From Psychrobacter sp. DM4 (GTDB lineage Bacteria; Pseudomonadota; Gammaproteobacteria; Pseudomonadales; Moraxellaceae): a DNA stretch of 32,000 nucleotides. The notes under the pieces are model-generated. The model did no database searches, was not told where the DNA came from, and saw only the letters and a list, made by a program, of their open reading frames with translations. The stretch's first letter is position 1. Each line of letters opens with the position of its first letter. The translations under genes were made by a program, and so were the position numbers. Of the stretch, positions 10,541 through 24,875 are shown one piece after another. Location: the NCBI RefSeq assembly GCF_051307035.1, contig NZ_CP195536.1, positions 1,140,001 through 1,172,000 on the forward strand, in the 5' to 3' direction.

Positions 10541-10598
10541 ACAACGAGGTTATCGTACGCCACACTGTTGATTATTATTCATTCGTTTCATCAACATC

Positions 10599-10634
10599 AA
10601 AAAAAAACCAACTTTGATGAGTTGGTTTTTTTTA
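10599..10634. terminator. Bidirectional rho-independent terminator
   Basis: aaccaact (10606-10613) pairs with agttggtt (10620-10627) around the loop ttgatg. An A-run lies upstream and a T-run downstream. Confidence 0.75.
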
Positions 10635-10674
10635 TGCGTTATTTATAAATACTAAATCAAGCTCTAGCAGCAAA

Positions 10675-10712
10675 CGTTACTTTTCTTAAAGTTTCATAAA
10701 GCTACGCAACAG
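10675..10712 (+). promoter_or_regulatory. Copy 2 of the conserved 38-bp upstream motif
   Basis: cgttacttttcttaaagtttcataaagctacgcaacag is 32/38 identical to 9410-9447. TATACT sits 10 bp downstream. The motif is 58-115 bp upstream of the possible starts of the next ORF. Confidence 0.45.
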
Positions 10713-10769
10713 ATAAAACAAATATACTTTTCTTATGGGGGTGGGGCAAAAGATTCAGTATTCTTCCTT

Positions 10770-11195
10770 ATGAAATCTAATAGCTGGATTATCGCTGTTC
10801 ATAATAATGACTTAAATGGAATAACAATGAAAAGTTTAGCGTTGGGGTTTTTAGTATCGTTGATAGAAAATATCGCAGTCATTTTAATACTACCGACTCT
10901 AAAAAGTTTGGCTCTTGGTGTAATGTTAGCCGCGTCCACGATTTTTACAATAATCAATCCTGCAAATGCGGCTGCTAATAATATGACACATTACTCTGCA
11001 CCAGTAGCAGCCCATCAGGACATTGCCAAAGAATCTGAATCAACTACCAATAGTAAAGAGGGTAATTTAAAAAATAATGACCAACAGCAATATAACCGAT
11101 CAAAATATAATAGTGTTAAACAAAGGGTTGAGATGAATCGAACGCTCAAAACGGGTGAGGATCGCAGAATAGGATCTGGGAGTTATAGCTCTTAA
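10770..11195 (+). CDS. Hypothetical small secreted protein (start uncertain: 10770 or 10827)
   Basis: The ORF contains a signal-peptide-like stretch, KSLALGVMLAASTIFTIINPANA/AANN, followed by a hydrophilic N/Q/S-rich tail. The first 43 codons include a duplicated copy of the signal-peptide start. I recognise no homology. Confidence 0.4.
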   Translation: MKSNSWIIAVHNNDLNGITMKSLALGFLVSLIENIAVILILPTLKSLALGVMLAASTIFTIINPANAAANNMTHYSAPVAAHQDIAKESESTTNSKEGNLKNNDQQQYNRSKYNSVKQRVEMNRTLKTGEDRRIGSGSYSS

Positions 11196-11256
11196 TTTTA
11201 AAACCAAATGTTTAAGCTAGCATCAGGATATTAATTTTACAAAAGGGAATGTTGTC

Positions 11257-11583
11257 ATGAGAAATTATTTTAATTTGTTTAGCACTAAAGCGCGATTGCT
11301 CTGTTTGGGATCAGCACTATTCATAGCACCAGTAACCTCAAGTTTTGCCATTTTGCCGATACCATTAGCAATATTTGAACCTGAATCAATTTCGTTACTC
11401 TCAGCGAATGACAAAAAACTATCAACTAGCTATGATGATGTTAATTTTGAAGATAGCAACTTAATGACTCGCAATCAAAGCCAAGCTAAAAAGTATACTA
11501 CTGAATATTTAGTATCTAACATTGAGCGTATACCAGCCCTTTATCTTAGTGAACGTACCATTATTATGAAGTCTACATTGTAA
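11257..11583 (+). CDS. Hypothetical small secreted protein
   Basis: The N-terminal signal peptide is MRNYFNLFSTKARLLCLGSALFIAPVTSSFA. An AAGGGA-like ribosome-binding site lies 8 nt upstream. I recognise no homology. Confidence 0.4.
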   Translation: MRNYFNLFSTKARLLCLGSALFIAPVTSSFAILPIPLAIFEPESISLLSANDKKLSTSYDDVNFEDSNLMTRNQSQAKKYTTEYLVSNIERIPALYLSERTIIMKSTL

Positions 11584-12240
11584 GTGGTCTTACCAATCTT
11601 GTTTGTGCATATATGCTAAGCTGTCGTCAAAGCTCTTTAAATTTATTAAGACAGATCTGTTTGCTGCGATTACTAATCTGACTAATGGTAAACACGAGAA
11701 TGTAAAACTTGCGAAAACTAATTACGCTACACAAGACTCAATATTTGTTCTACCAATTATTCAGGGTAAAAACCCTGACATTCATAAAGCCACCTGACCA
11801 ATATTTTTTAGTGCTTTACTTTATATGTACTACGAATACTAGCTTAAAGCGTTTATAAACACATTCTTCTTATATTTTGGTTGATACCAGCATGTTTGTA
11901 AATGACTTTCATGAACCCACAATATCAAAAGTAATGACATCTAGTAACTCTCATATTATAGGTATAAATCAAACTGAAATAACCACTACATTGCATACCA
12001 TCTGAGTAGAAATGTAGCATCCAAAGTAGCTCTAAGTAAGCTGTTCTCGCTGCTTCCAGTTCTTATGACTCAAAGACATGCGCTTAAGTAAGTCGCGTCT
12101 TTATCTCCAATCAGACAGCTTGATTCTACTTAATTAGTATCTTAGGTTTGGGAGGGTTACCCTAGCTTTCAAGACAGATAATTAATTACTTAAATTTACT
12201 CTTTTGCTCAGTTTATATAGTTCACCATATACTAAGACAT

Positions 12241-12390
12241 TCCTAAAACTTCTAAAAATTCCATAAAAAAAGGCTTGCCGCATCGCTGCGAACAAGCCTG
12301 ATTTCTTTGTACACTATAAATATGGTGGGCCCAGTATCAACCACATAAATATTCCAAGTTATTGATTTAAATATTTTTATTTAAAAATAT
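12241..12390. repeat. Copy B of the ~145-bp imperfect direct repeat
   Basis: It aligns with 6155-6300. The hairpin is ggcttg (12272-12277) with caagcc (12293-12298), plus an inner stem cgca with tgcg. On the minus strand TTTTTTT follows the hairpin, so it can act as the terminator downstream of the seven-gene minus-strand operon. Confidence 0.8.
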
Positions 12391-12642
12391 TTTTTCTTAT
12401 ACCAACGGTTATACCAACAATTGAATCGAATTATAGATCGATTTTCCAGCCAATATTACAGTATGTTTGGTCTTAAAATTAATTGTTATTTATTGTTAGA
12501 TATAAGTAATATGCTAATTGAAGAATATAAATTATTCTAACGCTACCTTAACATCATTCAGATAATATGTGGGGAAGGAAAATGCTAAGAAGTCATGTAT
12601 ATATTCTTACCCCATAGTGGTAGGTAGTGAGTAAAATATTGT

Positions 12643-14490
12643 CTATTCTAGTGAGAATTTAATATTCCAACGACCAGCTTCCTTATATTCACCTTTAGCA
12701 TTCAATTTAAAATATCGGTTCTTATCAGCATCTGAGGTTAGCTGATAGGTTACACCACATTGCGAGTTTAAGCATTGCGCGATAAAGGTACGATTGGTTG
12801 CTCTTGGTTCAAATGTGGATAGTTGATGACATAAAGGGCAGTGCTTCAAAACTGCTACTTCTTGATTTTTTTCTAGCAGACTCGCTTTATCTGTATGACG
12901 CAAGTAGCTTTCAATTTCTTTTTTACTATTAATAGATAACTCATTTATTAATTGATAGCTACTGGCGTTCTTATAGATACTATTAGTCTCTGCTAGACTT
13001 TGTAGAGCACGACTGGAGATTTTATTAAATGGTAGGTCACTGGCATATCCTGTTAATATGTCAACGTATAGCCATTCTAGCAGTCGAGTAATAAGGCGCT
13101 CGGTAGCCATAAAATTAAGTGGATTAGCTAGTATCGCATTGTTTGTGACAGGCTTATTCTCTGATAGGTCAATCTTTGACTCTAAAAGATGAATAACGAT
13201 CAGATGGGGATTACTTTTTATATCATGATTTAAGGTATCATCAATTTGATTGGCGATGGAAATAATATTTAATAGGTTTTTCGAATATGTATGAGTCAAA
13301 CGCCAGTTATGTGTTTGTTGATCGACTTCAACAGTTACTTGCCAGTTAAGTTCATCGTTTGCTAGAAGTATACTACCAGTAGTTTTTTTAATAGTATTAA
13401 AATTCAACTCTTCGAGTGCCCTTAATAAAATTAACAAAGCATATTGATTGTACTCTTCTTGGAACTGGCGCTTTTTTTCCAACGCTTTAATTAAATCTTT
13501 CACTTCTTGAGACTGTTTATTGAGTTTTGTCCATAAAATACCCACATGTCTATAGTGTTGGTCATGCATCAAGATATTTGTCTTGTGCAACTGGTTTGAA
13601 ATATTCTTATGGGCTTGAGGGATTTTTAGGTAGAGTCCAAAACTTTGTAATCTAGTTATGTTATCTTGCAATGCTAAGTTTTTTTCACTAATTGTCATTA
13701 GCTCTTTGCGTTTTTCGGCGGATTTTTCATCACTGAGATTGCTTGCCCATAAACTACAAAGAAGGCTGGTTAGTTTGTAATAGCTTTCATGCGCTTTATC
13801 AAGTTGTAGGGCATCATCAATATTATTGATTTGTTCCTCTAGTTCTCTAAGTCGTTGTTGTAAAAATAGCATGACCCTATCGAGTAGTCTTGAAAAAACT
13901 TTATTTTCATATATAGAGTAGTTATCGTCACTAATTTTAGCTAAAAGTTTTCTAGGATACACGCCTGCTAAAGTACGCCTTTGCCAAGTCTCGGAATGCA
14001 CAGCTAAATAACGATGAGCTTTATTAGATATCTTCTTTGCTCGGCTAACATCAATTAACTCTTCATCGTAACGAATATCAAGTCTAGGCTGGTAGGCTAT
14101 TTGATGTAAATGACCTGTTTCCAATACGTCGAACAAAGATTGTTCAAAATCGTTCAATTTAGCAGTGTCCTCGAACACTTTCTCAGGCACAAGTGGGCTA
14201 GGTAGAGGAGTCAATTCATCCTCTGCTAGCCATAATGCCAATTGTAAGGCTATATGTTCAATTGAACGACTCATTGTACTTGTTATCGCTGGATCTAGGC
14301 ATAGTACAGAATCTGCGTCATCTATCACAAAGTGCCCTGTACTATCACAGAAAAGAATAGTATAAGCATCTACTTCAAAACGTCGATTGTAAGTAAATGG
14401 GCGAGTATTCACATATCTTTGTGGAATTACAGAAGTAATTATAGGTAATGTGGATAATGAGACGATATCGCCTGTAATTCTATCAAGCAT
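12643..14490 (-). CDS. McrC-like partner protein (DUF2357-like region, possible degenerate PD-(D/E)xK core, C-terminal zinc ribbon)
   Basis: The 615-aa ORF starts 3 nt after the stop of the McrB-like gene. DDNYSIYENKVFSRLLDRVMLFL resembles the conserved YEN(R/K)+hydrophobic helix of McrC/DUF2357-type proteins. Candidate nuclease residues are ..NQIDD..(about 20 aa)..LIVIHLLESK, a hydrophobic strand followed by E-x-K. The C-terminus has CPLC-x18-CLNSQC. Confidence 0.5.
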   Translation of the reverse strand: MLDRITGDIVSLSTLPIITSVIPQRYVNTRPFTYNRRFEVDAYTILFCDSTGHFVIDDADSVLCLDPAITSTMSRSIEHIALQLALWLAEDELTPLPSPLVPEKVFEDTAKLNDFEQSLFDVLETGHLHQIAYQPRLDIRYDEELIDVSRAKKISNKAHRYLAVHSETWQRRTLAGVYPRKLLAKISDDNYSIYENKVFSRLLDRVMLFLQQRLRELEEQINNIDDALQLDKAHESYYKLTSLLCSLWASNLSDEKSAEKRKELMTISEKNLALQDNITRLQSFGLYLKIPQAHKNISNQLHKTNILMHDQHYRHVGILWTKLNKQSQEVKDLIKALEKKRQFQEEYNQYALLILLRALEELNFNTIKKTTGSILLANDELNWQVTVEVDQQTHNWRLTHTYSKNLLNIISIANQIDDTLNHDIKSNPHLIVIHLLESKIDLSENKPVTNNAILANPLNFMATERLITRLLEWLYVDILTGYASDLPFNKISSRALQSLAETNSIYKNASSYQLINELSINSKKEIESYLRHTDKASLLEKNQEVAVLKHCPLCHQLSTFEPRATNRTFIAQCLNSQCGVTYQLTSDADKNRYFKLNAKGEYKEAGRWNIKFSLE

Positions 14491-14493
14491 ATA

Positions 14494-16938
14494 TTAGACT
14501 CCACTTAACCTTTCTATATCCTGCTCTAAAAGATAACTACTCTCTTCAGGGACATCCGATAAACCTAAGGTCTCCCATATCCGTAGTAAGCTATCGTTGA
14601 TATCCTCAATCTTATCAGAACGTGTATCATATCGACCACAGACTTTACCAATACGGAATACTTTAGTAGCTAACAAATGGTCAAGTGCTTCTGCCATCGT
14701 GCCACCGCAAGCCATATAGACAGGAATAAACTTACGAGCTTGGTTTTGCAAGCGATTACCCCAGCTAACTTTAATTTTAAGTAGGTTTTTTTGCAATTCG
14801 CTCTCTAATAACAACTCGAATATATCATCGACATCTGACTGATGTTTTGTAATAGCTTGTTCAAAACGTTCTATCAAACTGCTATAGGAGTATTGAGTAT
14901 TGTCCACCGTATTATCGAAAGTAAGTTTCTCACTTCTGTGTATTTCCATAACGTGGGCTCTATCATAGGTTTTGTCAGCAAACTCTTTGGTTGTTTCATC
15001 GTGGTTTGCAGTGCCTATAAACCATACATTTTTAGGTATCTCTAAGGTCCGACCATTTTTAAATAGCAAGGGTGCATCATGATGTGAGCTATCTAATAAG
15101 TTTATTTTTGCGATATCAGAAGTTTCTAATAGAGACAAAAAGTCAGCAAAATACTGTTCAGGTTGAGACAAATTCATTTCATCTAACAAAATTATTTGTA
15201 GAGTGTTCTGAAATCGCGGTTGTTGGGCACGGTATAAAGCTTGTAATGCTTCTTTGGCATAGAATTTTTTCTCAAACGCGTTATAGTGACCTAATAAATC
15301 TTCTCTATCACGCCAGCCTGCTTGTACTCGAATCACCTCGCAATAAAGTTCATTATCATTATCGGGTGGGTTATTAATCGCTTTTGCAAAGGCTCGAGCT
15401 AAGCTAGTCTTACCTGTACCAGAGATACCTTGCAAAATATGTAGCTTGCTCATTGACAGTCCAGCAATAAATAGCCGTATGTCTTTATTAGTATAATAAA
15501 GACCTTGATTGGCAATGCGGGCACGCATAAGGTTTGAGAATTCCTCTAAGCTTGGCACGGCTTGCAAGCCACTTGCTAGACTACTGAATTTTTCATCCAT
15601 GTCACTAAGTAGCGAAAATGGTAGTGCGCCTTTTTGAGCATCTTCTAAGTCATCAATCTGACTTTTTAATTGTTCAATACTAATATTCAGCACTCTTTTA
15701 TGTTCTTCTAATATTCGTTTTTCTTGTAGCAAGTTTTGACGTTCAAGCGCGCTTAATCGAGTGTTATTAAGTTCACTCTGAGCCTGGGCATAGCTTGCTT
15801 TTAAGTCTTCTAATTGACTTAGTGTGTCATCTAATCTTTCTTCTAATCTTTGATTATCTTCTATTAATCCATCTTCATAACGTTCACTTAGTTCATGCTT
15901 AAGCTCTCTATTCTTCTGTCTAAGTCGGTTTAGTTCTTCTTGAACGTTATTGATACCATCGTTGGTTAGTTGGCGCTTTAAATCCTCAAATTGAGCATTT
16001 TCTTGTGCCATTCTATCTATCTCGTCAATTGCCTTTCTTTTACTCTCTATAAGCGCTTTGTTTTCAGCGGCTAATTGAGTTAGTTTTGCTTCAAACTGCC
16101 GATGAATATGGCTTTTCAGTACATCGTTTTGAATGTCTAACTGTGCTTTCGTTTCTTCTAATTCAGTTTGCGCCAGTTTAAGTGCGCTCTCCTGTTCGAC
16201 TAAATCTAACTTTTGCTTTTGTAAGGCTTTGTTGTCATTTTCTTTTCTAGCGTGTAATTCTTTTAGTAAATCCTGCTCTAAATTATTGGCTCTAAGGGTC
16301 AACTCTTCTTCTATCAATGATATTTGTTGTTCACGCTCTCTAAGCTGGTTATCTTTATCATAAATATTTTTTAATCGTTGTTCTATTTGAGCTAGAGATG
16401 TTTTCTGTAGTTCACTTAGCTCTTTATTTTTGACTTGTAGCGCTTCTTGTTTTTGACTTGCAAAACCTAATTCAGCATTAATTTGTTGCTCTTCTAAAAC
16501 AGATAACTGCTTTCGAAGCTCAAGCTGTTCTGTTTTTAAACTTTTCTTTTCTTCTAGTAACTGCTGACGTGCGTTGTCAACCTCTGTTTGCCGTTGAGCT
16601 ATTGATGCATTGTCTTCGTCAAGTTTGGTCTTTTGACGGTATAGATCGCTCTTTTGTTGTTCTAGAGCTTCAAGCTCTTCATTTAGAAGAGTGCTTTTAC
16701 TTTGGTATTCAGCCGAGTCTTGCTTGTATTGCTGTTCAGCTTCAGTATAAGACTCTAGGTCAGCTAGCATCTTATCTCTAAGCTCATTATCCTTTTCCAA
16801 TAACATTTCTTGTTCTTTATTGACAATCGAACCTGTAACACTTTTTAGAAGCTCTGATATTTTTGTAACCTCTTTATTTGCACTAGGGCTAGGAATTTCA
16901 GACTTTACATGGTTATTTTTTCTGTTCTTTCTTGCCAT
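14494..16938 (-). CDS. Coiled-coil protein fused to a McrB-like AAA+ (AAA_5-type) NTPase
   Basis: Residues ~25-445 are an uninterrupted E/K/Q/L-rich heptad-like sequence (nt ~15604-16866). Walker A is GISGTGKT (nt 15406-15429) and Walker B is QIILLDEMNLSQPE. NVWFIGTANHDETT aligns with the McrB segment GLMNTADRS. The gene is followed by a McrC-like gene. Confidence 0.7.
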   Translation of the reverse strand: MARKNRKNNHVKSEIPSPSANKEVTKISELLKSVTGSIVNKEQEMLLEKDNELRDKMLADLESYTEAEQQYKQDSAEYQSKSTLLNEELEALEQQKSDLYRQKTKLDEDNASIAQRQTEVDNARQQLLEEKKSLKTEQLELRKQLSVLEEQQINAELGFASQKQEALQVKNKELSELQKTSLAQIEQRLKNIYDKDNQLREREQQISLIEEELTLRANNLEQDLLKELHARKENDNKALQKQKLDLVEQESALKLAQTELEETKAQLDIQNDVLKSHIHRQFEAKLTQLAAENKALIESKRKAIDEIDRMAQENAQFEDLKRQLTNDGINNVQEELNRLRQKNRELKHELSERYEDGLIEDNQRLEERLDDTLSQLEDLKASYAQAQSELNNTRLSALERQNLLQEKRILEEHKRVLNISIEQLKSQIDDLEDAQKGALPFSLLSDMDEKFSSLASGLQAVPSLEEFSNLMRARIANQGLYYTNKDIRLFIAGLSMSKLHILQGISGTGKTSLARAFAKAINNPPDNDNELYCEVIRVQAGWRDREDLLGHYNAFEKKFYAKEALQALYRAQQPRFQNTLQIILLDEMNLSQPEQYFADFLSLLETSDIAKINLLDSSHHDAPLLFKNGRTLEIPKNVWFIGTANHDETTKEFADKTYDRAHVMEIHRSEKLTFDNTVDNTQYSYSSLIERFEQAITKHQSDVDDIFELLLESELQKNLLKIKVSWGNRLQNQARKFIPVYMACGGTMAEALDHLLATKVFRIGKVCGRYDTRSDKIEDINDSLLRIWETLGLSDVPEESSYLLEQDIERLSGV

Positions 16939-16942
16939 AGTG

Positions 16943-18487
16943 CTATGCCTTATCAGTTAATTGGTTTAAGTAATTTTGAACCCATTGAGTTGTAAATTTT
17001 GCCAGATCGAGCGCTGTACTTTGGGTAATATCAGTCTTTGGCCCGTCATGCGAGCTTTCATTACGGTAATCACATATTTGACTTAAAAATAGCAAGTCAG
17101 CATCTAAATCATCGGTAAGTAGCAATGGGTGATTAGAGTAATCAGCAATTGCTAGAATATTTGCCGTTATAATAGGCTTTAAAGAGCTATAGATAGTGGG
17201 GTATTTACCCGTTGAAAAACCTATAGCTGACTGTACCGCTCTAACATTACAAGTAGAGAAAGGTTCTAGACTCTCATCTAGAGCTCTGTTATTTGCTCGT
17301 AAAATTAGAGCTTGCAATAAGAATTTTTTATCTGAGGAGTAGGGCAGTATCTTATTATGTTGATGTGGGTAAGTGGTCAAAACATGTTTAAAGCAAGCTT
17401 CTAATGACTTTTGAGATTGCAATAATAAGTCATCGATATCTGCGCTATAGTTATGTTCTTCGAGATATTTTTGTCTGCGCAATAGTTTAGCGAGATGCAT
17501 ATCGAGATTATCAATCTCATTAACATTTGGATATGACGATAATATTTCAAAACGCATTTCTTCTTGTAAATGCGCCTCAAACTCTTCAATGCTTTGTTTG
17601 TCAGACTGATCAAGCCCCATAAATCGTTTAACTTTACTTGCAAAGGGTTTGTTACCCTGTGCTATGCTGTCATGTAAGTGGATAATCCAGTCATCAGATT
17701 GAGTAATATGTAATGGGTCTTGAAGCTGAGAGAAATGCTTTGTATCTATACTGTGCTGTAGATGAGTAAGGATAAAGTATGGTGTGGGTTGCTTGCTGGC
17801 AATATCAAAGTTACCAAGATTGATATTAGAAGTGGCAGTTTTTTTTGAGTCATTACTACGGTTACGTAATCTACCACTGGCTACGGCTCTTTTATATAGT
17901 TCAAGTGCTTGCCTAAACTCATTCTTAGTTGGTTTGGTAAAATGATATTTTTGAGAGGTATTTACGATAAAAGGTTCAATGTTTTGTCCTGTGTTTCGAT
18001 CCGCTTTGATAGTAACGCTATGGTCGTTCTTAACAACATCTAAGTAATTTAGCTTATGTGCGACAACACGAGGCCAAAGATGACCGTCAATAGCATCTTG
18101 AATAATATAACCCAGTTGTGTCTTATAAGAGGGCGTAGCTGTTTTATCTAGTGCCTGCCAGCCCAATGGTGTAAGATTTATAATGCCCTTGTCACTATTC
18201 ACGTAACCACGATTAAAAAGTTCATTTATGATAATATCAACAAGTTCAGCATCAATATTTAGCCATTGACTCATTTGCATGCGATCACGCTTGTTATACT
18301 TTAACAGCTCAAGAATGGTACGTTGAAAAAAGTTGAAGTTATCTTCTTTGTCCGCGATGGGGGTTATTACTTCCCACAGCCAGACTGGAAGAAATGCCAT
18401 GTTATGTCTATCATTGGTATTTAGATCCTTCATATCGCTATTGCTATAGAAAGATAGGTAATTATCAGAAAATTTGTCCATAATCAC
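16943..18487 (-). CDS. wHTH-like N-terminal domain protein with a C-terminal HEPN-type putative RNase domain
   Basis: The R-x4-H HEPN motif is present as ICDYRNESSHDG (R475-H480; nt 17048-17065) within a predicted helical C-terminal region. The N-terminal FQRTILELLKYNKRDRMQMSQWLNIDAELVDIIINELFNRGYV...LTPLG looks like a winged helix. The gene overlaps the helicase gene by 23 nt. Confidence 0.55.
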   Translation of the reverse strand: MIMDKFSDNYLSFYSNSDMKDLNTNDRHNMAFLPVWLWEVITPIADKEDNFNFFQRTILELLKYNKRDRMQMSQWLNIDAELVDIIINELFNRGYVNSDKGIINLTPLGWQALDKTATPSYKTQLGYIIQDAIDGHLWPRVVAHKLNYLDVVKNDHSVTIKADRNTGQNIEPFIVNTSQKYHFTKPTKNEFRQALELYKRAVASGRLRNRSNDSKKTATSNINLGNFDIASKQPTPYFILTHLQHSIDTKHFSQLQDPLHITQSDDWIIHLHDSIAQGNKPFASKVKRFMGLDQSDKQSIEEFEAHLQEEMRFEILSSYPNVNEIDNLDMHLAKLLRRQKYLEEHNYSADIDDLLLQSQKSLEACFKHVLTTYPHQHNKILPYSSDKKFLLQALILRANNRALDESLEPFSTCNVRAVQSAIGFSTGKYPTIYSSLKPIITANILAIADYSNHPLLLTDDLDADLLFLSQICDYRNESSHDGPKTDITQSTALDLAKFTTQWVQNYLNQLTDKA

Positions 18488-21400
18488 CTCGACATAGTTG
18501 GCTCATAGCTGTTAAAGATGGAATGTGTTGTTCTGTTAATGGATGCTCAGCTAACATTAAGTCACCTGCGATAATAATCAAACTTCTTTGTCGACTAAAA
18601 GCCACGTTAAGGCGATTATCTACACGCAAAAAGCCATAGAGCGAATTGAGTTGAGGTTCAGTCATCTCATAGCCCCTATTTTTTGTTACGGTTTTTAAGT
18701 CATTAGGTAGCGTGCGTACAAGTGACAATAACACCACATCAAACTCTTTACCTTGAAATGAATCTACTGTACCCACTCGCAAACGCTCATCACCTATATG
18801 ACTGCCTTTAGTCAGTTGTTGATAGTCAGGATGTACTTCGTTGTTTAGAATCAAATCAAGCTTTTGCATTTCTTGCATTAGAGCGCTTCTTTGATCTCCA
18901 TAAAAGGTGATCACACCGACACTTATTTCTGGATTTTCATCTAGAATGCGTTTTGTCTCTTGGGAAATCCAAATAGCTTCATTCATATTTCTTCTCTTAT
19001 TACCTTTTTGAGTACCTTCAATATGTTGCCAGTGACATACCATGCCTTCGTATCCAGATATGTCATGAATAAAGTCAGTAGTGGGTCTACCTGACTTAAG
19101 CTTAGATAGTCCGTGATTTTCGTAAAAATTTTTGCTAATAAAATCTCCAAGCACTGGATGCATACGGAATTGCTCATCAAGCATTACTACTCGTTTTGGT
19201 TGCCCGTCCTCTTTCTCTAGCTGGGTTAAGTTCTTTACCATTCTTTGAAATAAGCTGTCGCGTAGCATTTCGCTTTGCAAGCTGTCCCAGTCATCTTCTT
19301 CTACCATTTGGGTTTCCACGGCATCATCAAGCATATGCGGCAGTTGTCTATGATCTCCTACCAATACAATCCGTCTATTTGCCATAGCCATTGGTATCAT
19401 AAGATCTAATGGTGTGGCACGTGCAGCCTCATCCACAATGACATTTTCAAAGTTAATGTTGGAATCTTGGCTAAGTTGAGTTAAGCGTCTCATGTCTTGG
19501 CTGGCTGATTTTTGACAAGTGGCCGCATAGACAGAGGTATAGTGGGCGATTGTTTCGTCTACTTTGTTATCATCAGTAGCGACTGTTTCACGAAATTGCT
19601 TTAAAGCCAAAAGATACCCTAATGTATGCGACTCGCTAATTTTTTTAGTCATTTGAGTATCAAGTTCATCTAACCTATCGCAATCACTAGCAGTTAGTAT
19701 GCTTTGTATATTCAATGGTCTAAAGTCAGGTAAGCTCTTATCTAATAACGTATCTTTCAGTTGCTGTAATGGTATTAGATCAGCGTCTGAAGGAGGGGAG
19801 ATTTGCATATGACCAAAGTTATCTAATATTTGAAGTTTATCTTCTGATATGAGCTGAGTGTCTGGATTATCATTTTGTAATAATGTTAAGTAGGCGCTTA
19901 ACTCCGCGCAACGTTGGATTCCATCATCGGCAAAACTTGAAGCAGAGGTTCGAAGTGCCCAAATATTAGGTATACAGTTTTGTAATAATGAAGGAGAAAA
20001 GTAAGACTGCTCTAACGTAAAGCCTTCCCACCATAAGCGCCAATCATGAGACGGTACAATATGATAATACGTATTAAAGTCTGTCAAGATTCGGTTGATC
20101 TCTATTTTACTGCGCTCTTTTATATCTCTAGCACCCAAACGCAAGTTTAGGGTTGCATGCTTTAATGAATCGAGTAACGTTAATGCATAACAATCGTCTA
20201 TTTCTTGAGTTAAAACATCCTTTGTAGAGTTACGCCATTTTTGGATGGGCAGATTAACGTCTTTTTGTCCTATGTTGTCTTGATACTTGCTACCAACACG
20301 TAGACCAGGTAAGCCTAATACCTGTGTTCGGCTGTTGGCATTATCAACTGCATCATGTTGATAGCTCGTTAACAGGATGGAACGTTGAACAGGCGTGTTA
20401 TCCTTTGCTTTTTCTTCTACGATTCGCTGTTGAATAGCGGCGATGACTTGTGTCTTTCCTGTACCGGGCGGTCCGATAATAACAGTAATATCAGCACTGT
20501 TTAAAGCCGTTTCAATGGCTTGTTGCTGTCTACGAGTAGTCGGGCCCGCTTTGAATAGAGCTTTTACCTGTGGACTATGCCATCTTAATTTGCGAGACTG
20601 TTTGATAGTGGGTACAGCAATACCTTGCATTAAATAGTCTAAACTTGGCATTGGATTATGATGATGACTAATTTGCTCTAAGGCTAGAACCTGACGTTGG
20701 CGTTGAACCTGAGTTGAATAAATTGATAAAAATAGAAAGCTATTACCGTGTTTATCGGTAGGTTTTTTTTTCTCACGAAATCCTGTGTATTTAACAGTCA
20801 AGTATCCTGCATCACTGTCAATATCAACAATTTCACATTTCCAAGGTTCTTCTAGAGCTTTCTTGTGGTCAGTTTTACTGCTATTCTCAGGGCTGCTGTT
20901 ACTTAGCCAATCTGGCAATGTTGATGCTATTTGGAATACCTGTTCTTCTTTCTCATTATTCTGAATACTCACCTGTAATGCTTCGGCAAATTTCTTTAAT
21001 TGCTCTTTGTTTACACTAAGACGAGACAAATTTTGTTGCTCTAGAATTTTGTCATCTAGTATCTTTAAATAGTTAAATTTTTGCGCATTTATGGCAACTT
21101 TTTGCCATTGTAGATCACTATATTTTTGCCATACTTTGATATAGTTACCATGGGTGTTTTTACTATCTTTGAGCGCAGTTTTATAATGAGGCTGATTGAG
21201 CTTTTGCGCCTGAGAGTTATCAAAGAAAACAATATTACCCTGTATCGCGCTTAATTCAATATTATCACTATGTGGATTAAATGGTCTGATTCTTTGTATA
21301 TTCCATTGGTTATTTGATACTTTAATATCAAGGATATGTGCTTTACCTACTAGGCTTAAAGTATCATCAGTGGAATTTTGATTTAGGAAGGTTATAAATA

Positions 21401-21869
21401 GTGCTGTAGTATAAGAATGAGAAGTATCTATAAATGATACATTCTCAGTGATTAGAAAGTTCTCTTCTAACCATACTATAGCTAAATTGACGTCATTATC
21501 TCCAATATGTCTTTGGTTTTTAAGTTGCTCAACGATGTATTCGCTGACACCAAGATTAAAGTCTTCCCCGTCTACTCGAACTATTTCATCTTTAAGGGGT
21601 GTTGCCATTAGCCAAAGTGCATCGGCCTCTTGTTTGACTAATGACCACAATAGATTGTGCTGTTGAATATATAGTCTGGCATGAACAGCTGTCTTATCAG
21701 CAGACTGTATATTCTCTAGGGTAGTTACAGTGCTATCTTGAGCTAAGTATAGAGATTCGCCTTCTATCCATACGTTTACTGGTTTTTCCTCTATCAATCT
21801 GACACTATCATCAATGAGGGTTACTTCAAACAACTCACTGGAGTTGATTCTAAGTTCAAATAAGTTCAT
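18465..21869 (-). CDS. Superfamily 1B helicase, Upf1/DNA2-like (AAA_11/AAA_12 type), with a ~450-aa uncharacterised N-terminal region
   Basis: - **Motif I:** IIGPPGTGKTQV (nt 20451-20474 encode GPPGTGKT).
- **Motif II:** VIVDEAARATP.
- **Motif III:** VLVGDHRQLPH.
- **Motif IV:** LDEQFRMHPVLGDFISKNFY.
- **Motif V:** VGTVDSFQGKEFDVVLLSLVR.
- **Motif VI:** NRLNVAFSRQRSLIIIAGD. Confidence 0.85.
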   Translation of the reverse strand: MNLFELRINSSELFEVTLIDDSVRLIEEKPVNVWIEGESLYLAQDSTVTTLENIQSADKTAVHARLYIQQHNLLWSLVKQEADALWLMATPLKDEIVRVDGEDFNLGVSEYIVEQLKNQRHIGDNDVNLAIVWLEENFLITENVSFIDTSHSYTTALFITFLNQNSTDDTLSLVGKAHILDIKVSNNQWNIQRIRPFNPHSDNIELSAIQGNIVFFDNSQAQKLNQPHYKTALKDSKNTHGNYIKVWQKYSDLQWQKVAINAQKFNYLKILDDKILEQQNLSRLSVNKEQLKKFAEALQVSIQNNEKEEQVFQIASTLPDWLSNSSPENSSKTDHKKALEEPWKCEIVDIDSDAGYLTVKYTGFREKKKPTDKHGNSFLFLSIYSTQVQRQRQVLALEQISHHHNPMPSLDYLMQGIAVPTIKQSRKLRWHSPQVKALFKAGPTTRRQQQAIETALNSADITVIIGPPGTGKTQVIAAIQQRIVEEKAKDNTPVQRSILLTSYQHDAVDNANSRTQVLGLPGLRVGSKYQDNIGQKDVNLPIQKWRNSTKDVLTQEIDDCYALTLLDSLKHATLNLRLGARDIKERSKIEINRILTDFNTYYHIVPSHDWRLWWEGFTLEQSYFSPSLLQNCIPNIWALRTSASSFADDGIQRCAELSAYLTLLQNDNPDTQLISEDKLQILDNFGHMQISPPSDADLIPLQQLKDTLLDKSLPDFRPLNIQSILTASDCDRLDELDTQMTKKISESHTLGYLLALKQFRETVATDDNKVDETIAHYTSVYAATCQKSASQDMRRLTQLSQDSNINFENVIVDEAARATPLDLMIPMAMANRRIVLVGDHRQLPHMLDDAVETQMVEEDDWDSLQSEMLRDSLFQRMVKNLTQLEKEDGQPKRVVMLDEQFRMHPVLGDFISKNFYENHGLSKLKSGRPTTDFIHDISGYEGMVCHWQHIEGTQKGNKRRNMNEAIWISQETKRILDENPEISVGVITFYGDQRSALMQEMQKLDLILNNEVHPDYQQLTKGSHIGDERLRVGTVDSFQGKEFDVVLLSLVRTLPNDLKTVTKNRGYEMTEPQLNSLYGFLRVDNRLNVAFSRQRSLIIIAGDLMLAEHPLTEQHIPSLTAMSQLCRGDYGQIF

Positions 21870-21875
21870 TTATAT

Positions 21876-23321
21876 CTACCAGATAAAACGCCAAAAAAAG
21901 TATGAAGTATTGTCAGTACTGCTAGAGGAAGATGATATTTTTAGTGTATAAAAATCATTTCGTTTAATTGCTATTTTTAGTAAACGAGTCTTTTTAATAT
22001 CTACTGTTTTATTATCTTTTAGCCTGATAATTGTAATAGTTTCATTATTTTTTGGTGTTATATGAAGGCCGTCATCAGTGAGCTTAAGTTCACACCAAGG
22101 TGATAGTTTTGTTAAGTCAAAGCGGCTGTAAGGTTCGGTATACAGATATTTGTCATAATTCAAGCTAATGATTGAAGTATTATGACAGTCTATATCTTGA
22201 CTACTAGTATCGTCTATTTGTTCAGTCGTATAAAAGAACTGTGATATGGATAAGGAGTATGGTTCGTTAGACTCACCACAAAAAAAGCATTGCCTATCAT
22301 TATTAGCGACAAAACTACTCTGAAAATGCTCACCTTGACAGGGCTGATGTTGACAGTACATTAGTATCTGAAGCGTTTTATTTAGTTCGTGGTGCCATTC
22401 ATTCATACTAGGCCTAAGGTATAGGCCACTACGTAGTCTACTATCAGCAAAACAACGTTTAAACAGTTCAAATAGGTCATCATTAATTAATTCATTCAGT
22501 GGCATACCTGCGCCATTGTGCTCATTACTATCATCTTCTGGATCAAATATCCAAGCGTAAGCTCCTTGTTCAACTTGCTCATCGACCACATCGGAATCTT
22601 CATCATCATAAGCATCTTCCACACCGATACCTTCATTATATGGATGATTATGAGCAAGTAGTTGCTGTGCTATGACAGCAAAAGCCCAACAGTCTGTCCA
22701 AGAACTGTTTTCTGACTCATTTCTTAGGACTTCTGGAGCGCCATAGCCAGGCGTGTAGTAAGAAGCAGCGTGCGAACTTTCCTGCGTTTTGATATTGTCA
22801 GCATCTATCAGCCACACCTCATTATGATCATAAGATGTAGACACATAGATATTGTCTGGTGATAAGTCGCCATAACACAAGCCTTTGCCATGAAGCTGGG
22901 CTAACGTTTGGGCTAGTTGTATTAATAATTTTATCCGTCTGGCTAATCCACCAGTGTCACGATAAGCGTCTGCCATGCTAACGTTGATAGAACTATCTTG
23001 AATACGCTTTATTTGCTGAGTAAGCGATTCGAGGTTATCCATTAACTCCATGACATAGCCGACACGATTTTTTAATTTAAGTACGGCTATAGGTAGAGCG
23101 ATATTTAAATCTCGTATGGGCCTACGTACCACCCATTGTATTTTTGCAAATTCTTGATGTCTTTTGACGTCACTATCTATAGGGTTGGTTATTTTTACAA
23201 TCAGATTATGATGATTGGTAGTGAATACTTGACCTTGCCCGCCTTGCCCAAGTTTGCTTGTTAATTCGTAGACGGTGCCATGAGTATCTTTAACTTCCTT
23301 ATTCTTTTGTGCTACTGCCAT
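21876..23321 (-). CDS. Ser/Thr protein kinase (Hanks-type) with a C-terminal zinc ribbon and an extra C-terminal domain (TerY-P kinase component)
   Basis: - **Gly-loop:** LGQGGQGQVF (nt 23226-23249).
- **Lysine strand:** LIVKI.
- **Catalytic loop:** YGDLSPDN (nt 22851-22868 encode DLSPDN).
- **DFG-equivalent:** LIDADN.
- **APE-like:** GYGAPE.
- **Zinc ribbon:** CQHQPC-x16-CFFC.
- **C-terminal region:** ~140 aa, beta-rich and of unknown function. Confidence 0.85.
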   Translation of the reverse strand: MAVAQKNKEVKDTHGTVYELTSKLGQGGQGQVFTTNHHNLIVKITNPIDSDVKRHQEFAKIQWVVRRPIRDLNIALPIAVLKLKNRVGYVMELMDNLESLTQQIKRIQDSSINVSMADAYRDTGGLARRIKLLIQLAQTLAQLHGKGLCYGDLSPDNIYVSTSYDHNEVWLIDADNIKTQESSHAASYYTPGYGAPEVLRNESENSSWTDCWAFAVIAQQLLAHNHPYNEGIGVEDAYDDEDSDVVDEQVEQGAYAWIFDPEDDSNEHNGAGMPLNELINDDLFELFKRCFADSRLRSGLYLRPSMNEWHHELNKTLQILMYCQHQPCQGEHFQSSFVANNDRQCFFCGESNEPYSLSISQFFYTTEQIDDTSSQDIDCHNTSIISLNYDKYLYTEPYSRFDLTKLSPWCELKLTDDGLHITPKNNETITIIRLKDNKTVDIKKTRLLKIAIKRNDFYTLKISSSSSSTDNTSYFFWRFIW

Positions 23322-24027
23322 GTTGTTTTTTCCAAATAATTACCCCAATACTTTTATCATCACTATGATGAGGGGTTTGCCAATTATTGAGCTCATTAAT
23401 TAGGTATTTCTTACCTTGACGAGGGCTAATAGCTATGAATTTACCAGACAGAAAATCTAAAAATTGTTGAGGCTTATCTATATCATCACTAATTCCATCT
23501 GTCATTAATGTAATTGTGGCACCAAAATCTAATTGAATTTCTCGGTAAGTCCAATCTTGCCAACGTATTGAATATCCTAAAGCAGTTGTTTCATTACCAA
23601 ACATATTGTCAGATTTTTCATGATTAACGCCGAAAGTATCTGTCATATAGTAAATAGCACCGTCACCTAGCTGAAAAAGCCTTACTTTCCCTGAGGAGTC
23701 TCCCCAAGCAAACAGGCATGTTGTGGCGGCATCTTTAGGAGAGGTACGAGGAAGATAATCTTTCAAGTACATTAGCCATTGCTGGTATATTCTTTTTACT
23801 ACACTTTTTTCAGGCTCATTAAAATTGGTCTCACGTAAGGTAGTACACACTGCTTTACACGCAAGATATGAGCCAAGGGAGGCATAAGGACGAGAACCCA
23901 TACCATCACAAACGACTACTAACCAATGAGCACGCCAAACACGCTTCAAAATAGCATCTTGATTACGTTTAGATTCACGATGGTTTTTTGGCCCTCGAAC
24001 AGTAGCTATAGATATATTTACATTCAC
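23299..24027 (-). CDS. PP2C-family Ser/Thr protein phosphatase (TerY-P phosphatase component)
   Basis: PP2C metal-binding blocks are present: RNQDA, VVVCDGMGS, LMTDGISD and DDKSIGVI. A GTG start overlaps the vWA stop by 1 nt (TAGTG). The 3' end overlaps the kinase start by 23 nt. Confidence 0.8.
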   Translation of the reverse strand: MNVNISIATVRGPKNHRESKRNQDAILKRVWRAHWLVVVCDGMGSRPYASLGSYLACKAVCTTLRETNFNEPEKSVVKRIYQQWLMYLKDYLPRTSPKDAATTCLFAWGDSSGKVRLFQLGDGAIYYMTDTFGVNHEKSDNMFGNETTALGYSIRWQDWTYREIQLDFGATITLMTDGISDDIDKPQQFLDFLSGKFIAISPRQGKKYLINELNNWQTPHHSDDKSIGVIIWKKQHGSSTKE

Positions 24028-24710
24028 TAGTCGAAATCACTTAGGTCAAGCTCATCGTCTGTGGATATATCATTAAAATCTATCTTATTAATTTGATTTG
24101 GCTTTGTGCTACGAGATCGTAAAGTGACGCTCATGCTAACTGCTCTAAAAAATCTAGAAATGTCTTTAGCATCATGTGCTTTGAACACCGGCGTTTCAAG
24201 GTCATTAATAAATTGTTTTAACATATGTATATTAGCATCTGCTCCAATACCCATTGCCATTCTTACGGCTTTGCTGGCACGTTCAGATTCTTGTAATTCG
24301 ACAAAGGGTTGTTCCCAATTATCTGTAGGGTTGCCATCAGACACCAACACTAGAGTAGGCTTGTATGCTCGACTTGGTATGAGCTCTTTGTCTTCTAACA
24401 ATTCTTTTGCCATTGTCATTGCACTACCCATGGGAGTACCGCCACTTGCTACTAAGTCTTGCATACCTGATATTTCATCAGCTGAAGTTAGAGGTAATAT
24501 CATCGAAGCATTCTCCCCCCCAAATGCGATGATAGCGACTTGGATAACTGCATTGAGATGGCTTTCTTTGCCAAACGATATCAGCATGTCTTTAAGTGCT
24601 AAATTCAGAGCTTCCATTTTTCCATCTATACTCATACTACCGCTAGTATCTGCCAAAATAATAACTGGTAGAGGACGTGGCTTAGCAGCTGCGAATTCGC
24701 GCATTGCCAT
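24027..24710 (-). CDS. TerY-like von Willebrand factor A (vWA) domain protein
   Basis: The MIDAS motif DTSGS is at nt 24636-24650. Downstream are GGTPMG and LVSDGNPTD. The size (227 aa) and layout are typical of TerY-type vWA proteins. This is the first gene of the operon. Confidence 0.85.
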   Translation of the reverse strand: MAMREFAAAKPRPLPVIILADTSGSMSIDGKMEALNLALKDMLISFGKESHLNAVIQVAIIAFGGENASMILPLTSADEISGMQDLVASGGTPMGSAMTMAKELLEDKELIPSRAYKPTLVLVSDGNPTDNWEQPFVELQESERASKAVRMAMGIGADANIHMLKQFINDLETPVFKAHDAKDISRFFRAVSMSVTLRSRSTKPNQINKIDFNDISTDDELDLSDFD

Positions 24711-24875
24711 AATTATTTCCTTACATTAGACGAGATTTATTGCACTATCCTACTGTCTAATCTTACAGAGGTAAAGCAGTTTATTAAGACTTTCTCGAGC
24801 AAATATTTTTAAATGTTATTGTCAACTTGCACATAAACTAGAATGGTTTTAGCTATGAAAAGTAACGAGCCAGCA

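What the first reader, a model, noticed from the sequence alone, without database searches (positions are those of the whole stretch)
16943..18487. Embedded wHTH + HEPN protein: a probable RNase effector inside a McrBC-like operon
The 514-aa protein ends in a helical domain carrying RNESSH (nt 17048-17065). This is the R-x4-H signature with the polar residue after Arg that is typical of HEPN RNases. Its N-terminus looks like a winged helix, and the ~300-aa middle region is not recognisable to me.

A HEPN RNase between a Upf1-like helicase and a McrB-like motor suggests RNA (phage transcripts, or host tRNA/rRNA in an abortive response) as a target. That would be unusual for a restriction-type motor system.
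Basis: partly seen in the sequence, partly recalled or inferred. Interest (0 to 1): 0.7.

Follow-up and report, generated by a model that had tools for sequence, protein, structure and literature searches.

The report
CnuE effector of a CoCoNuT system

Summary
The ORF (16943-18487, minus strand) and its RNESSH motif (nt 17048-17065) are real. An Rx4H motif alone is not beyond chance: 53% of shuffles have one. Conservation is what matters: in 152 family representatives (about 20% mean identity), R is kept in 83%, N/D in 82% and H in 95%.

A high-confidence AF2 model (pLDDT 91.8) shows three parts:
- an N-terminal extended winged helix;
- a helical linker;
- an all-alpha C-terminal domain, with the motif between the last two helices.

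All sub-threshold profile hits for the C-terminal domain fall in HEPN families (RiboL-PSP-HEPN, DUF4145, MAE_28990-HEPN, Csm6, Csx1). No fold match to a solved HEPN structure could be obtained.

The gene order is vWA, PP2C, Ser/Thr kinase-Zn ribbon, Upf1-like helicase, this gene, coiled-coil McrB-like GTPase with an NxD motif, then an McrC-like Zn-ribbon protein. This order is conserved down to 19-23% identity. It matches the Type II CoCoNuT of Bell et al. 2024 (TerY-P, CnuH, CnuE, CnuB, CnuC). Pseudomonas Type II CoCoNuTs have since been shown to protect against RNA and DNA phages.

RNase activity of CnuE is still untested.

The parts
16943..18487 (-). cnuE: extended wHTH + helical linker + single HEPN domain. 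It is 514 aa from the GTG; the likely true start is the ATG at 18481, giving 512 aa.
17618..18400 (-). CnuE residues ~30-290: extended winged-helix module (wHTH core ~53-117, then a beta-rich extension and helices). Homologous to the N-terminal part of Mokosh MkoB.
   Evidence: Pfam wHTH-PRTase_assc in 63/91 members. PADLOC MkoB matches residues 47-283 of the window protein, and matches 66/91 members. Foldseek finds MarR-type hits. AF2 secondary structure.
17456..17590 (-). CnuE residues ~300-344: two long helices linking the wHTH module to HEPN. This is the weakly predicted 'coiled-coil' of the published description.
   Evidence: AF2 helices H300-318 and H328-344; PMC11090510
16946..17446 (-). 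CnuE residues ~348-514: all-alpha C-terminal domain assigned to the HEPN superfamily.
   Evidence: AF2 model. Sub-threshold hits: HEPN_RiboL-PSP, DUF4145 and the generic Pfam HEPN model (last at E 6), HEPN_RiboL-PSP and HEPN_MAE_28990, Csx1, Csm6.
17048..17065 (-). R475-N-E-S-S-H480, the Rx4H HEPN signature. It lies at the C-terminal end of the penultimate helix.
18465..21869 (-). cnuH: Upf1-like SF1 helicase (1134 aa) with a ~440-aa N-terminal region and a large insertion after Walker A. It overlaps cnuE by 17-23 nt.
   Evidence: Pfam AAA_11 spans residues 446-844 for a 257-position profile, and AAA_12 also matches. PADLOC MkoA 7e-86. NCBIfam IGHMBP2 family.
14494..16938 (-). cnuB: ~430-aa charged, Pro/Gly-poor (coiled-coil-type) N-terminus followed by a McrB-like GTPase. 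Motifs: Walker A GISGTGKT, Walker B ILLDEMN, shortened signature N-H-D-E (NxD).
   Evidence: 41% identity (E 1e-26) to a published Type I-A CnuB, with the NxD region aligned.
12643..14490 (-). cnuC: McrC-like partner (615 aa) with a C-terminal Zn ribbon (CPLC ... CLNSQC). No nuclease motif was detected.
   Evidence: No Pfam hit above threshold. Conserved CPxC and Cx4C. Weak DUF2357 hit in the syntenic homologue of L006 (E 0.0034).
21876..23321 (-). TerY-P kinase: Ser/Thr kinase with a C-terminal Cys-rich Zn ribbon (CQHQPC ... CFFC).
23299..24027 (-). TerY-P PP2C phosphatase.
   Evidence: Pfam PP2C_2 2.8e-35
24027..24710 (-). TerY-like vWA protein, the first gene of the operon.
   Evidence: Pfam VWA_2/VWA; PADLOC TerY

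Best explanation
The gene encodes CnuE, the nuclease effector subunit of a complete seven-gene Type II CoCoNuT (coiled-coil nuclease tandem) anti-phage system in a Psychrobacter defence island.

**Shown here**
- The domain layout is an extended wHTH, a helical linker and one C-terminal all-alpha domain.
- The R[N/D]xxxH motif is conserved across the family.
- Gene order with TerY-P (vWA, PP2C, STK-Zn ribbon), the CnuH Upf1-like helicase, CnuB (coiled-coil McrB-like GTPase with NxD) and CnuC (McrC-like with a Zn ribbon) is conserved.

**Inferred mechanism (from HEPN and CoCoNuT literature)**
1. The wHTH/linker part docks CnuE onto the CnuH helicase.
2. CnuH loads onto phage or aberrant RNA and feeds it to the HEPN domain.
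3. Like other HEPN RNases, the domain probably needs to pair with a second HEPN so that two Rx4H motifs form one metal-independent active site, leaving 2',3'-cyclic phosphate ends.
4. The CnuB hexamer and the CnuC partner, in which no nuclease motif was detected here, probably act as a GTP-driven scaffold or translocase.
5. The TerY-P kinase/phosphatase pair probably acts as an on/off switch.

The expected outcome is restriction of RNA phages and some DNA phages, and possibly growth arrest through host RNA cleavage.
For: **Motif and family**
- The ORF and motif are present.
- Exhaustive HMMER finds 379 representatives at E<=1e-3, mostly 480-530 aa and matching over the full length.
- R475 is kept in 83%, N/D476 in 82% and H480 in 95% of 152 sequences.

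**Structure and domain assignment**
- The AF2 model has pLDDT 91.8 and pTM 0.83. Residues 300-514 are all-alpha, and the motif sits at the end of H461-479, before the final helix H489-513.
- The consensus C-terminal domain matches HEPN_RiboL-PSP (6.5e-4) and DUF4145 (1.8e-3). Both alignments cover the stretch of the consensus that contains the RNxxxH motif.
- 5 of 91 members hit HEPN_RiboL-PSP and 1 hits HEPN_MAE_28990.
- The only hit in PADLOC is the C-terminal part of the Csx1 profile. The only hit in NCBIfam is the C-terminal part of the Csm6 profile.

**Operon context**
- The same seven genes in the same order occur in L006 (53% identical CnuE), L011 (19%) and Pseudomonas L013/L014 (23%, E 7e-29).
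- CnuB carries the NxD(E) signature and is 41% identical to a published CoCoNuT CnuB.

**Literature**
- The published definition matches: Type II CnuE is an elongated wHTH with one HEPN and RxxxxH, alongside TerY-P, CnuH, and a CnuC with an inactivated nuclease and a CPxC Zn ribbon (PMC11090510).
- A seven-gene P. aeruginosa Type II CoCoNuT ('Obs') protects against RNA phages PP7 and LeviOr01 and DNA phage MPK7. Transposon hits in obsC and obsG abolish the phenotype (10.64898/2026.04.06.716636).
- In a second study five pairs of defence systems, one of them CoCoNuT Type II with Pycsar, were cloned into PAO1. All of the systems except JukAB gave resistance to at least one phage (PMC12735699).
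Against: - **Weak profile hits.** All HEPN sequence-profile hits are below the curated thresholds. PDB sequence searches found no HEPN protein.
- **Arg-less relatives.** About 20 of 152 relatives carry GGxxxH instead of R[ND]xxxH, and the one checked (P0071, locus L011) sits in the same operon. The Arg is therefore not universally required for whatever the domain does.
- **Weak CnuC assignment.** The window's own CnuC has no detectable DUF2357 or similarity to a Type I-A CnuC.
- **No direct experiment.** RNase activity, CnuH-CnuE docking, HEPN dimerisation and phospho-regulation are all inferred. No experiment on any CnuE HEPN mutant was found in the literature searched.
Confidence: 0.85

Rival explanations
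1. The C-terminal domain has the HEPN fold but does not cut RNA. It would act as a dimerisation, nucleotide-binding or RNA-binding module, and the real nuclease would lie elsewhere, for example the RelE-like domain reported in CnuH, or an unrecognised activity in CnuC.
For: - About 20 of 152 relatives have GGxxxH and lack the catalytic Arg, and the one checked (P0071, L011) keeps the full operon.
- Non-catalytic HEPN domains exist in the superfamily (established knowledge).
- No CnuE biochemistry has been published.
Against: - This protein and 83% of relatives keep R, N/D and H together.
- HEPN is the only recognisable nuclease-type domain in the operon.
- In related systems the same position after the wHTH is occupied by other nucleases (PLD, Vsr-like). 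That argues for an effector slot (PMC11090510; MkoB PLD).
Confidence: 0.1
2. Two independent systems lie side by side. One is a Mokosh-like helicase + effector pair (MkoA/MkoB-type with HEPN instead of PLD). The other is a separate McrBC-type Type IV restriction system. They would not be one machine.
For: - PADLOC calls the helicase MkoA (7e-86) and the target MkoB-like, and gives CnuB a separate candidate family, PDC-M26A.
- DefenseFinder-type annotation of a P. aeruginosa locus with the same gene order and gene lengths as L013/L014 splits it the same way (PMC12191111).
Against: - The seven genes stay together, in the same order and with 3-23 nt junctions or overlaps, from 53% down to 19% CnuE identity.
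- No nuclease motif was detected in CnuC, so the McrBC half would have no effector of its own (PMC11090510).
- In Pseudomonas, transposon insertions in both obsC and obsG (the cnuC homologue, last gene) were recovered as mutants that had lost the defence phenotype.
Confidence: 0.04
3. The protein is mainly a wHTH transcription regulator of the operon, and the RNESSH match is incidental.
For: - The only structural matches are MarR-type repressors.
- An Rx4H motif arises by chance in about half of shuffled sequences.
Against: - The motif is among the most conserved columns across 152 sequences at about 20% mean identity.
- The protein is 514 aa, with a 215-aa conserved helical C-terminal part that a repressor does not need.
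- Relatives carry nuclease domains at the same position.
Confidence: 0.01

Closest known systems
CnuE of Type II CoCoNuT systems (Bell, Sahakyan, Makarova, Wolf, Koonin, eLife 2024, PMC11090510). Includes the P. aeruginosa/P. citronellolis 496-aa protein (P0166, WP_064581694.1 cluster) and the 'Obs' locus of P. aeruginosa PMM16.
   Same: - Architecture: elongated wHTH, weak coiled-coil linker, one HEPN with RxxxxH.
- Position: directly after, and overlapping, the Upf1-like cnuH, and before cnuB and cnuC.
- The TerY-P triad lies upstream.
- The alignment to P0166 is colinear over 470 aa, with RN(E/R)SSH, HPL and QK.LE aligned.
- Gene sizes are near-identical across the operon.
   Different: - Identity to the Pseudomonas protein is only 23%.
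- The window protein belongs to a small clade: 4 clusters at 35% identity or more among 5.8 billion proteins.
- No RtcR/CARF regulator or Type I RM lies next to it here. An HNH gene and an SNF2 helicase flank it instead.
MkoB of Type I Mokosh (Millman et al. 2022; PADLOC PDLC03922/03923)
   Same: - The N-terminal ~240 residues (wHTH plus extension) are homologous: E 3.6e-6 for the window protein, up to 1e-12 in relatives, and 66 of 91 members match.
- The partner is an Upf1-like SF1 helicase that matches MkoA at 7e-86.
- The kinase is associated with the helicase.
   Different: - MkoB carries a PLD nuclease. Here there is no HxKx4D motif and no PLD hit, and the C-terminus is HEPN-type.
- The kinase is a separate gene with PP2C and vWA partners rather than being fused to the helicase.
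- A coiled-coil McrBC-like pair is added.
HEPN RNases with C-terminal HEPN domains (Csm6/Csx1 of type III CRISPR; Pfam HEPN_RiboL-PSP PF18735, DUF4145 PF13643, HEPN_MAE_28990 PF18737)
   Same: - R-[N/D]-x3-H with a polar residue after Arg.
- The motif lies between the last two helices of an all-alpha domain.
- Weak profile similarity covers that region.
   Different: - All matches are below family thresholds.
- There is no CARF or other ligand-sensing domain.
- The domain is fused to a wHTH and coupled to a helicase rather than to a cyclic-oligoadenylate sensor.
Canonical McrBC (E. coli Type IV restriction)
   Same: An AAA+ McrB-type GTPase core with a downstream partner gene. NCBIfam gives a weak McrB hit, and Pfam finds AAA_5.
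   Different: - The signature is NxD, not NxxD.
- A long coiled coil replaces the DNA-reading N-terminal domain.
- No PD-(D/E)xK motif was detected in the partner.
- The system's recognisable nuclease is an RNase-type HEPN on a separate protein.

Membership tests
Type II CoCoNuT (PMC11090510) | The CnuB McrB-like GTPase carries the shortened NxD signature, usually followed by E or D, instead of NxxD. | tested here: met
   GTANHDET is at residue 642 and is identical in three homologous loci. It aligns to GAVNMDET of a published Type I-A CnuB, at 41% identity and E 1e-26 over the core (definition).
Type II CoCoNuT (PMC11090510) | A long coiled-coil is fused N-terminally to the CnuB GTPase. | tested here: inconclusive
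   Residues ~30-430 are 43-57% E/K/Q/R/D with almost no Pro or Gly. The heptad-periodicity measure was noisy. No dedicated coiled-coil predictor or structure job was available.
Type II CoCoNuT (PMC11090510) | CnuH is an Upf1-like SF1 helicase with a large helical insertion after Walker A, encoded immediately upstream of cnuE. | tested here: met
   AAA_11 (257 positions) spans residues 446-844, and AAA_12 spans 870-1103. NCBIfam finds the IGHMBP2 family. The cnuH stop overlaps the cnuE start.
Type II CoCoNuT (PMC11090510) | The CnuH N-terminus contains SmpB-like OB (SPB) and RelE-like (RTL) domains. | not tested
   A ~440-aa N-terminal region exists, but Pfam gives nothing significant for it.
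Type II CoCoNuT (PMC11090510) | CnuE is an elongated wHTH plus exactly one HEPN with RxxxxH. (Type III-A has two HEPN domains, the last with RxH.) | tested here: met
   There is one Rx4H, 35 residues from the C-terminus, so there is no room for a second domain. The wHTH and all-alpha C-terminal domain are seen in the AF2 model. HEPN-clan profile hits.
Type II CoCoNuT (PMC11090510) | CnuC is McrC-like: DUF2357, an inactivated PD-(D/E)xK domain, a Zn ribbon with CPxC motifs, and no Hsp70 domain. | tested here: inconclusive
   The Zn ribbon (CPLC plus Cx4C) is conserved in homologues, and there is no Hsp70 hit. DUF2357 is seen only weakly, in the syntenic homologue of L006 (E 0.0034, below threshold). 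There is no BLAST similarity to a Type I-A CnuC. The inactive nuclease fold was not testable.
Type II CoCoNuT (PMC11090510) | A TerY-P triad lies upstream: a vWA protein, a PP2C phosphatase, and an STK fused to a C-terminal Zn ribbon. | tested here: met
   Pfam VWA_2, PP2C_2 and Pkinase match. CQHQPC...CFFC follows the kinase domain. The same triad occurs in L006, L011 and L013.
HEPN superfamily | An Rx4-6H motif with a polar residue (N/D/H) after Arg, conserved among homologues. | tested here: met
   R 126/152, N or D 125/152, H 144/152.
HEPN superfamily | An all-alpha four-helix up-down core that matches solved HEPN structures. | tested here: inconclusive
HEPN superfamily | A profile match to a curated HEPN family above its threshold. 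| tested here: not met
   The best results are HEPN_RiboL-PSP at 20.1 bits (cut-off 28.4) and DUF4145 at 18.8 bits (cut-off 23.1) for the family consensus. The window sequence itself gives no HEPN hit. The weak hits are nevertheless all HEPN families.
HEPN superfamily | Metal-independent RNase activity. | not testable with these tools
   This needs biochemistry.
Mokosh type I MkoB | A PLD-family nuclease domain (HxKx4D). | tested here: not met
   There is no HxKx4D motif and no PLD Pfam hit in the window protein or in 91 relatives. Only the N-terminal 47-283 matches the MkoB profile.
Canonical McrBC Type IV restriction | An NxxD GTPase signature and an active PD-(D/E)xK McrC nuclease. | tested here: not met
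   The signature is NxD. No nuclease domain or motif was detected in the partner.

The most novel reading that the evidence does not exclude
The Psychrobacter CnuE belongs to a small, deep-branching clade. Only four clusters at 35% identity or more were found, all in metagenomes or Psychrobacter. Its HEPN domain might have a substrate or trigger different from the Pseudomonas systems. One possibility is that the TerY-P kinase switches it on by phosphorylation and that it then cleaves ribosome-associated RNA (tmRNA or tRNA) delivered by CnuH, making it an abortive-infection arm rather than a phage-RNA restriction enzyme. More broadly, the shared wHTH docking module shows that Mokosh (PLD) and CoCoNuT (HEPN) are interchangeable-effector versions of one helicase-guided machine.
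Probability: 0.15. Interest if true: 0.55.

Novelty: already known. Interest (0 to 1): 0.22.

Why it matters
The locus adds one complete, apparently intact Type II CoCoNuT from a cold-adapted Psychrobacter to a system class that has been described computationally and recently shown to defend Pseudomonas against RNA and DNA phages. Its mechanism is still unknown.

The value of this analysis is practical:
- It gives a confident domain map and active-site candidates: R475/N476/H480, plus the near-invariant E363, H453-P454 and D257-P258.
- It corrects the start codon.
- It shows that about one relative in six lacks the catalytic Arg.
- It shows that older defence-finder models split this system into 'Mokosh' plus 'Type IV RM'.

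It does not open a new question.

Tried and rejected
- **Word-indexed homology searches.** Three searches returned only four close relatives. The family became visible only with the exhaustive HMMER search.
- **First AF2 run.** A 5-sequence alignment gave an unusable model (pLDDT 44). The second run, with 132 sequences, succeeded.
- **Fold searches.**
  - Foldseek against PDB and BFVD gave only wHTH hits because the full-length model could not be cropped.
- **PDB sequence and profile searches.** They found no HEPN protein.
- **CoCoNuT supplementary table.** The copy held is cut before the Type II sheet. I therefore could not check whether this Psychrobacter locus, or the reference CnuE AVE71179.1, is listed.
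- **CnuC comparison.** BLAST of CnuC against a Type I-A CnuC found nothing.
- **Promoter, terminator and tRNA scans.** They were uninformative: site counts were at or below shuffle expectation, and no tRNA was found.
- **Readings considered and rejected.**
  - A PLD-type Mokosh MkoB: there is no HKD motif.
  - Type III-A CoCoNuT: the locus has a single HEPN, no Hsp70 domain in CnuC, and a Zn ribbon.
  - A plain wHTH regulator.
Full report
**Observation.** The window has a 514-aa ORF on the minus strand at 16943-18487, starting with GTG. Residues 475-480 read RNESSH, which is nt 17048-17065, as reported.
- The more likely start is the ATG two codons downstream (nt 18481, 512 aa). It is preceded by GAGG at Shine-Dalgarno distance, and most homologues begin at that Met.
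- An Rx4H motif alone proves nothing. It occurs in 53% of 2000 shuffles of this protein, and the stricter R[NDH]x3H occurs in 14%.

**Family and conservation.** Word-indexed searches found only four relatives at 35-99% identity. In all four, R475, N476, S479, H480 and D481 are invariant.
- An exhaustive HMMER search of 1.84 billion cluster representatives found 379 proteins at E<=1e-3 and 140 at E<=1e-10. Most are 480-530 aa and match end to end.
- In an alignment of 152 of them (about 20% mean identity), R475 is kept in 126, N or D476 in 125, and H480 in 144. The 8 sequences without H480 are 6 gaps and 2 substitutions.
- Other near-invariant positions are P34, N52, G109, P139, D257-P258, E363 and H453-P454.
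- About 20 distant members have GGxxxH in place of R[ND]xxxH.

**Structure.** A 5-sequence alignment gave a useless AF2 model (pLDDT 44). A 132-sequence alignment gave pLDDT 91.8 and pTM 0.83. The model shows:
- a wHTH core at ~53-117;
- a beta-rich extension with helices up to ~290;
- two long linker helices at 300-344;
- an all-alpha C-terminal domain at 348-513.

R475 and N476 lie at the C-terminal end of helix 461-479. H480 lies at the start of the loop before the final helix, 489-513.

**HEPN evidence by sequence.**
- The window sequence itself hits no HEPN family.
- Among 91 relatives scanned individually, the leading Pfam family after the wHTH models is HEPN_RiboL-PSP (5 members, best 5.5e-4). 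One further member hits HEPN_MAE_28990.
- The HMM consensus of the C-terminal domain hits HEPN_RiboL-PSP (6.5e-4, profile 144-190 of 191) and DUF4145 (1.8e-3, profile 41-87 of 88). Both alignments cover the stretch of the consensus that contains the RNxxxH motif. It also hits the generic HEPN model very weakly.
- In PADLOC its only hit is the C-terminal part of the Csx1 profile. In NCBIfam its only hit is the C-terminal part of the Csm6 profile.
- Every one of these hits is below threshold. Apart from one Exo70_N match, they all point to the same superfamily. PDB sequence searches found nothing relevant.

**Context.** The gene is fifth in a tightly packed minus-strand operon:

| Gene product | Coordinates | Evidence |
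|---|---|---|
| vWA | 24027-24710 | |
| PP2C | 23299-24027 | |
| Ser/Thr kinase with Cys-rich C-terminus | 21876-23321 | |
| 1134-aa Upf1-like SF1 helicase; AAA_11 stretched over 400 residues | 18465-21869 | PADLOC MkoA 7e-86; |
| Target (this gene) | 16943-18487 | |
| 814-aa protein: ~400-aa charged, Pro/Gly-poor N-terminus plus McrB-type core | 14494-16938 | |
| 615-aa protein ending in a CPLC...Cx4C zinc ribbon | 12643-14490 | |

Junctions are overlaps or gaps of 3-23 nt. The same seven genes in the same order accompany homologues at 53% (L006), 19% (L011) and 23% (Pseudomonas L013/L014) CnuE identity.

**Identification.** This is the architecture that Bell et al. (eLife 2024, PMC11090510) named the Type II CoCoNuT: the TerY-P triad, CnuH, CnuE, CnuB and CnuC.
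- The paper describes CnuE as an elongated wHTH fused to a nuclease. In Type II this is one HEPN, with RxxxxH 'conserved in most cases'. Type III-A has two HEPN domains.
- Its defining NxD variant of the McrB signature is present (GTANHDET) and is conserved in three homologous loci.
- The CnuB core is 41% identical (E 1e-26) to a published Type I-A CnuB, with NHDETT aligned to NMDETT.
- The Zn ribbon and the absence of any Hsp70 domain in CnuC place the locus in Type II rather than III-A.
- CnuC's McrC-like N-domain is only weakly supported: DUF2357 at E 0.0034 in the syntenic homologue of L006, and nothing by BLAST.
- The 496-aa Pseudomonas protein cluster lies in an operon whose gene lengths equal those of a P. 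aeruginosa locus tabulated in PMC12191111, a paper that cites Bell et al. (2024). There, DefenseFinder labels the pair 'Mokosh' and the GTPase 'Type IV RM (no nuclease)'.

**Relation to Mokosh.** Residues 47-283 match the MkoB profile (3.6e-6). 66 of 91 relatives match it, with E-values down to 1e-12. MkoB is the PLD-nuclease partner of the MkoA helicase. The target has no HKD motif and no PLD hit. The helicase plus wHTH-effector module is therefore shared, and the effector domain is swapped. This agrees with the CoCoNuT paper's remark that helicases of this family are followed by wHTH proteins carrying varied nucleases.

**Mechanism.**
- Shown here: the domain map, the motif conservation and the conserved operon.
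- Shown by others for Pseudomonas homologues:
  - A seven-gene Type II CoCoNuT protects against RNA phages PP7 and LeviOr01 and DNA phage MPK7. Insertions in obsC and obsG abolish the phenotype.
  - In a second study five pairs of defence systems, one of them CoCoNuT Type II with Pycsar, were cloned into PAO1. All of the systems except JukAB gave resistance to at least one phage.
- Inferred:
  1. CnuE docks through its wHTH/linker onto CnuH.
  2. CnuH threads RNA to a paired HEPN active site that cuts without metal.
  3. CnuB and the CnuC partner, in which no nuclease motif was detected here, provide a GTP-driven scaffold.
  4. The TerY-P triad switches the system by phosphorylation.

No CnuE mutant or biochemical data were found in the literature searched.

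**Rivals.**
- A non-catalytic HEPN is the only serious alternative (about 0.1). It is suggested by the Arg-less relatives, one of which (P0071, L011) sits in an intact operon.
- 'Two adjacent independent systems' is contradicted by deep synteny, by overlapping frames, and by the absence of any detectable nuclease in the McrBC half.
- 'Just a regulator' is contradicted by the conserved 215-aa C-terminal part.

**Verdict.** However, the object is a standard, already described component of a known defence system. Interest is low, except as a clean and divergent template for the still-missing biochemistry of CnuE.

Noticed in passing
window 18481-18487 (-): The ORF finder's GTG start lies inside a GAGGTG Shine-Dalgarno-like sequence. 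The ATG two codons downstream (nt 18481) aligns with the start Met of most homologues. CnuE is therefore probably 512 aa, and R475/H480 become R473/H478.
   Followed up: yes
P0070, P0071, P0086, P0089, P0091 and others; L011 6187-7722: About 20 of 152 family representatives have GGxxxH instead of R[ND]xxxH but keep the His. P0071 still sits in a full vWA-PP2C-STK-helicase-CnuE-CnuB-CnuC operon. The catalytic Arg may be dispensable, or these HEPN domains may be inactive.
   Followed up: partly
window CnuE residues D257-P258, E363, H453-P454 (nt ~17714-17719, 17399-17401, 17126-17131): These residues are as conserved as the HEPN His (137-144 of 152), and their role is unknown. E363 sits in the first long helix of the C-terminal domain. 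H453-P454 sits in the loop just before the motif helix.
   Followed up: no
window 12643-21869 (-): PADLOC v2 models label CnuH as MkoA, CnuE as weak MkoB, and CnuB as candidate PDC-M26A. A published P. aeruginosa table labels a locus with the same gene order and gene lengths 'Mokosh' plus 'Type IV RM (no nuclease)'. Older defence finders therefore split Type II CoCoNuTs into two wrong calls.
   Followed up: partly
window 25059-25601 (+): A truncated DDE transposase (DDE_Tnp_1_3, 5e-24; the match starts at profile position 11) lies about 350 bp upstream of the first gene of the operon. It could affect the operon's promoter.
   Followed up: no
window 26887-27948 (+) and 28387-31284 (+): A 353-aa HNH endonuclease is followed by a 965-aa SNF2-type helicase (PADLOC DrmD 6e-96, BrxH-like 1e-61). 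This is probably a second defence system next to the CoCoNuT. The window ends before it is complete.
   Followed up: no
window 25865-26581 (-): A 238-aa DnaQ/ExoX-like 3'-5' exonuclease (DNA_pol_A_exo1 and ExoX-like_C hits) lies between the two defence loci.
   Followed up: no
window ~11000-28000: G+C drops to 33-40% across the defence genes, against 42-49% in the flanking housekeeping genes (BCCT transporter, monooxygenase, antiporter, two-component system). This is consistent with a horizontally acquired island. No tRNA gene was found in the window.
   Followed up: partly
P0099, P0111, P0113, P0118, P0125, P0137, P0140, P0143, P0150: Nine relatives are 729-777 aa and share the N-terminal wHTH module. 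Some have an R[DH]xxxH motif near residues 666-703. They may be two-HEPN Type III-A CnuE proteins. Pfam finds nothing in the extra region.
   Followed up: no
window 9818-11583 (+): Three small ORFs (143, 141 and 108 aa) between the two-component system and the CoCoNuT operon have no significant family match. Two of them have hydrophobic N-termini.
   Followed up: no
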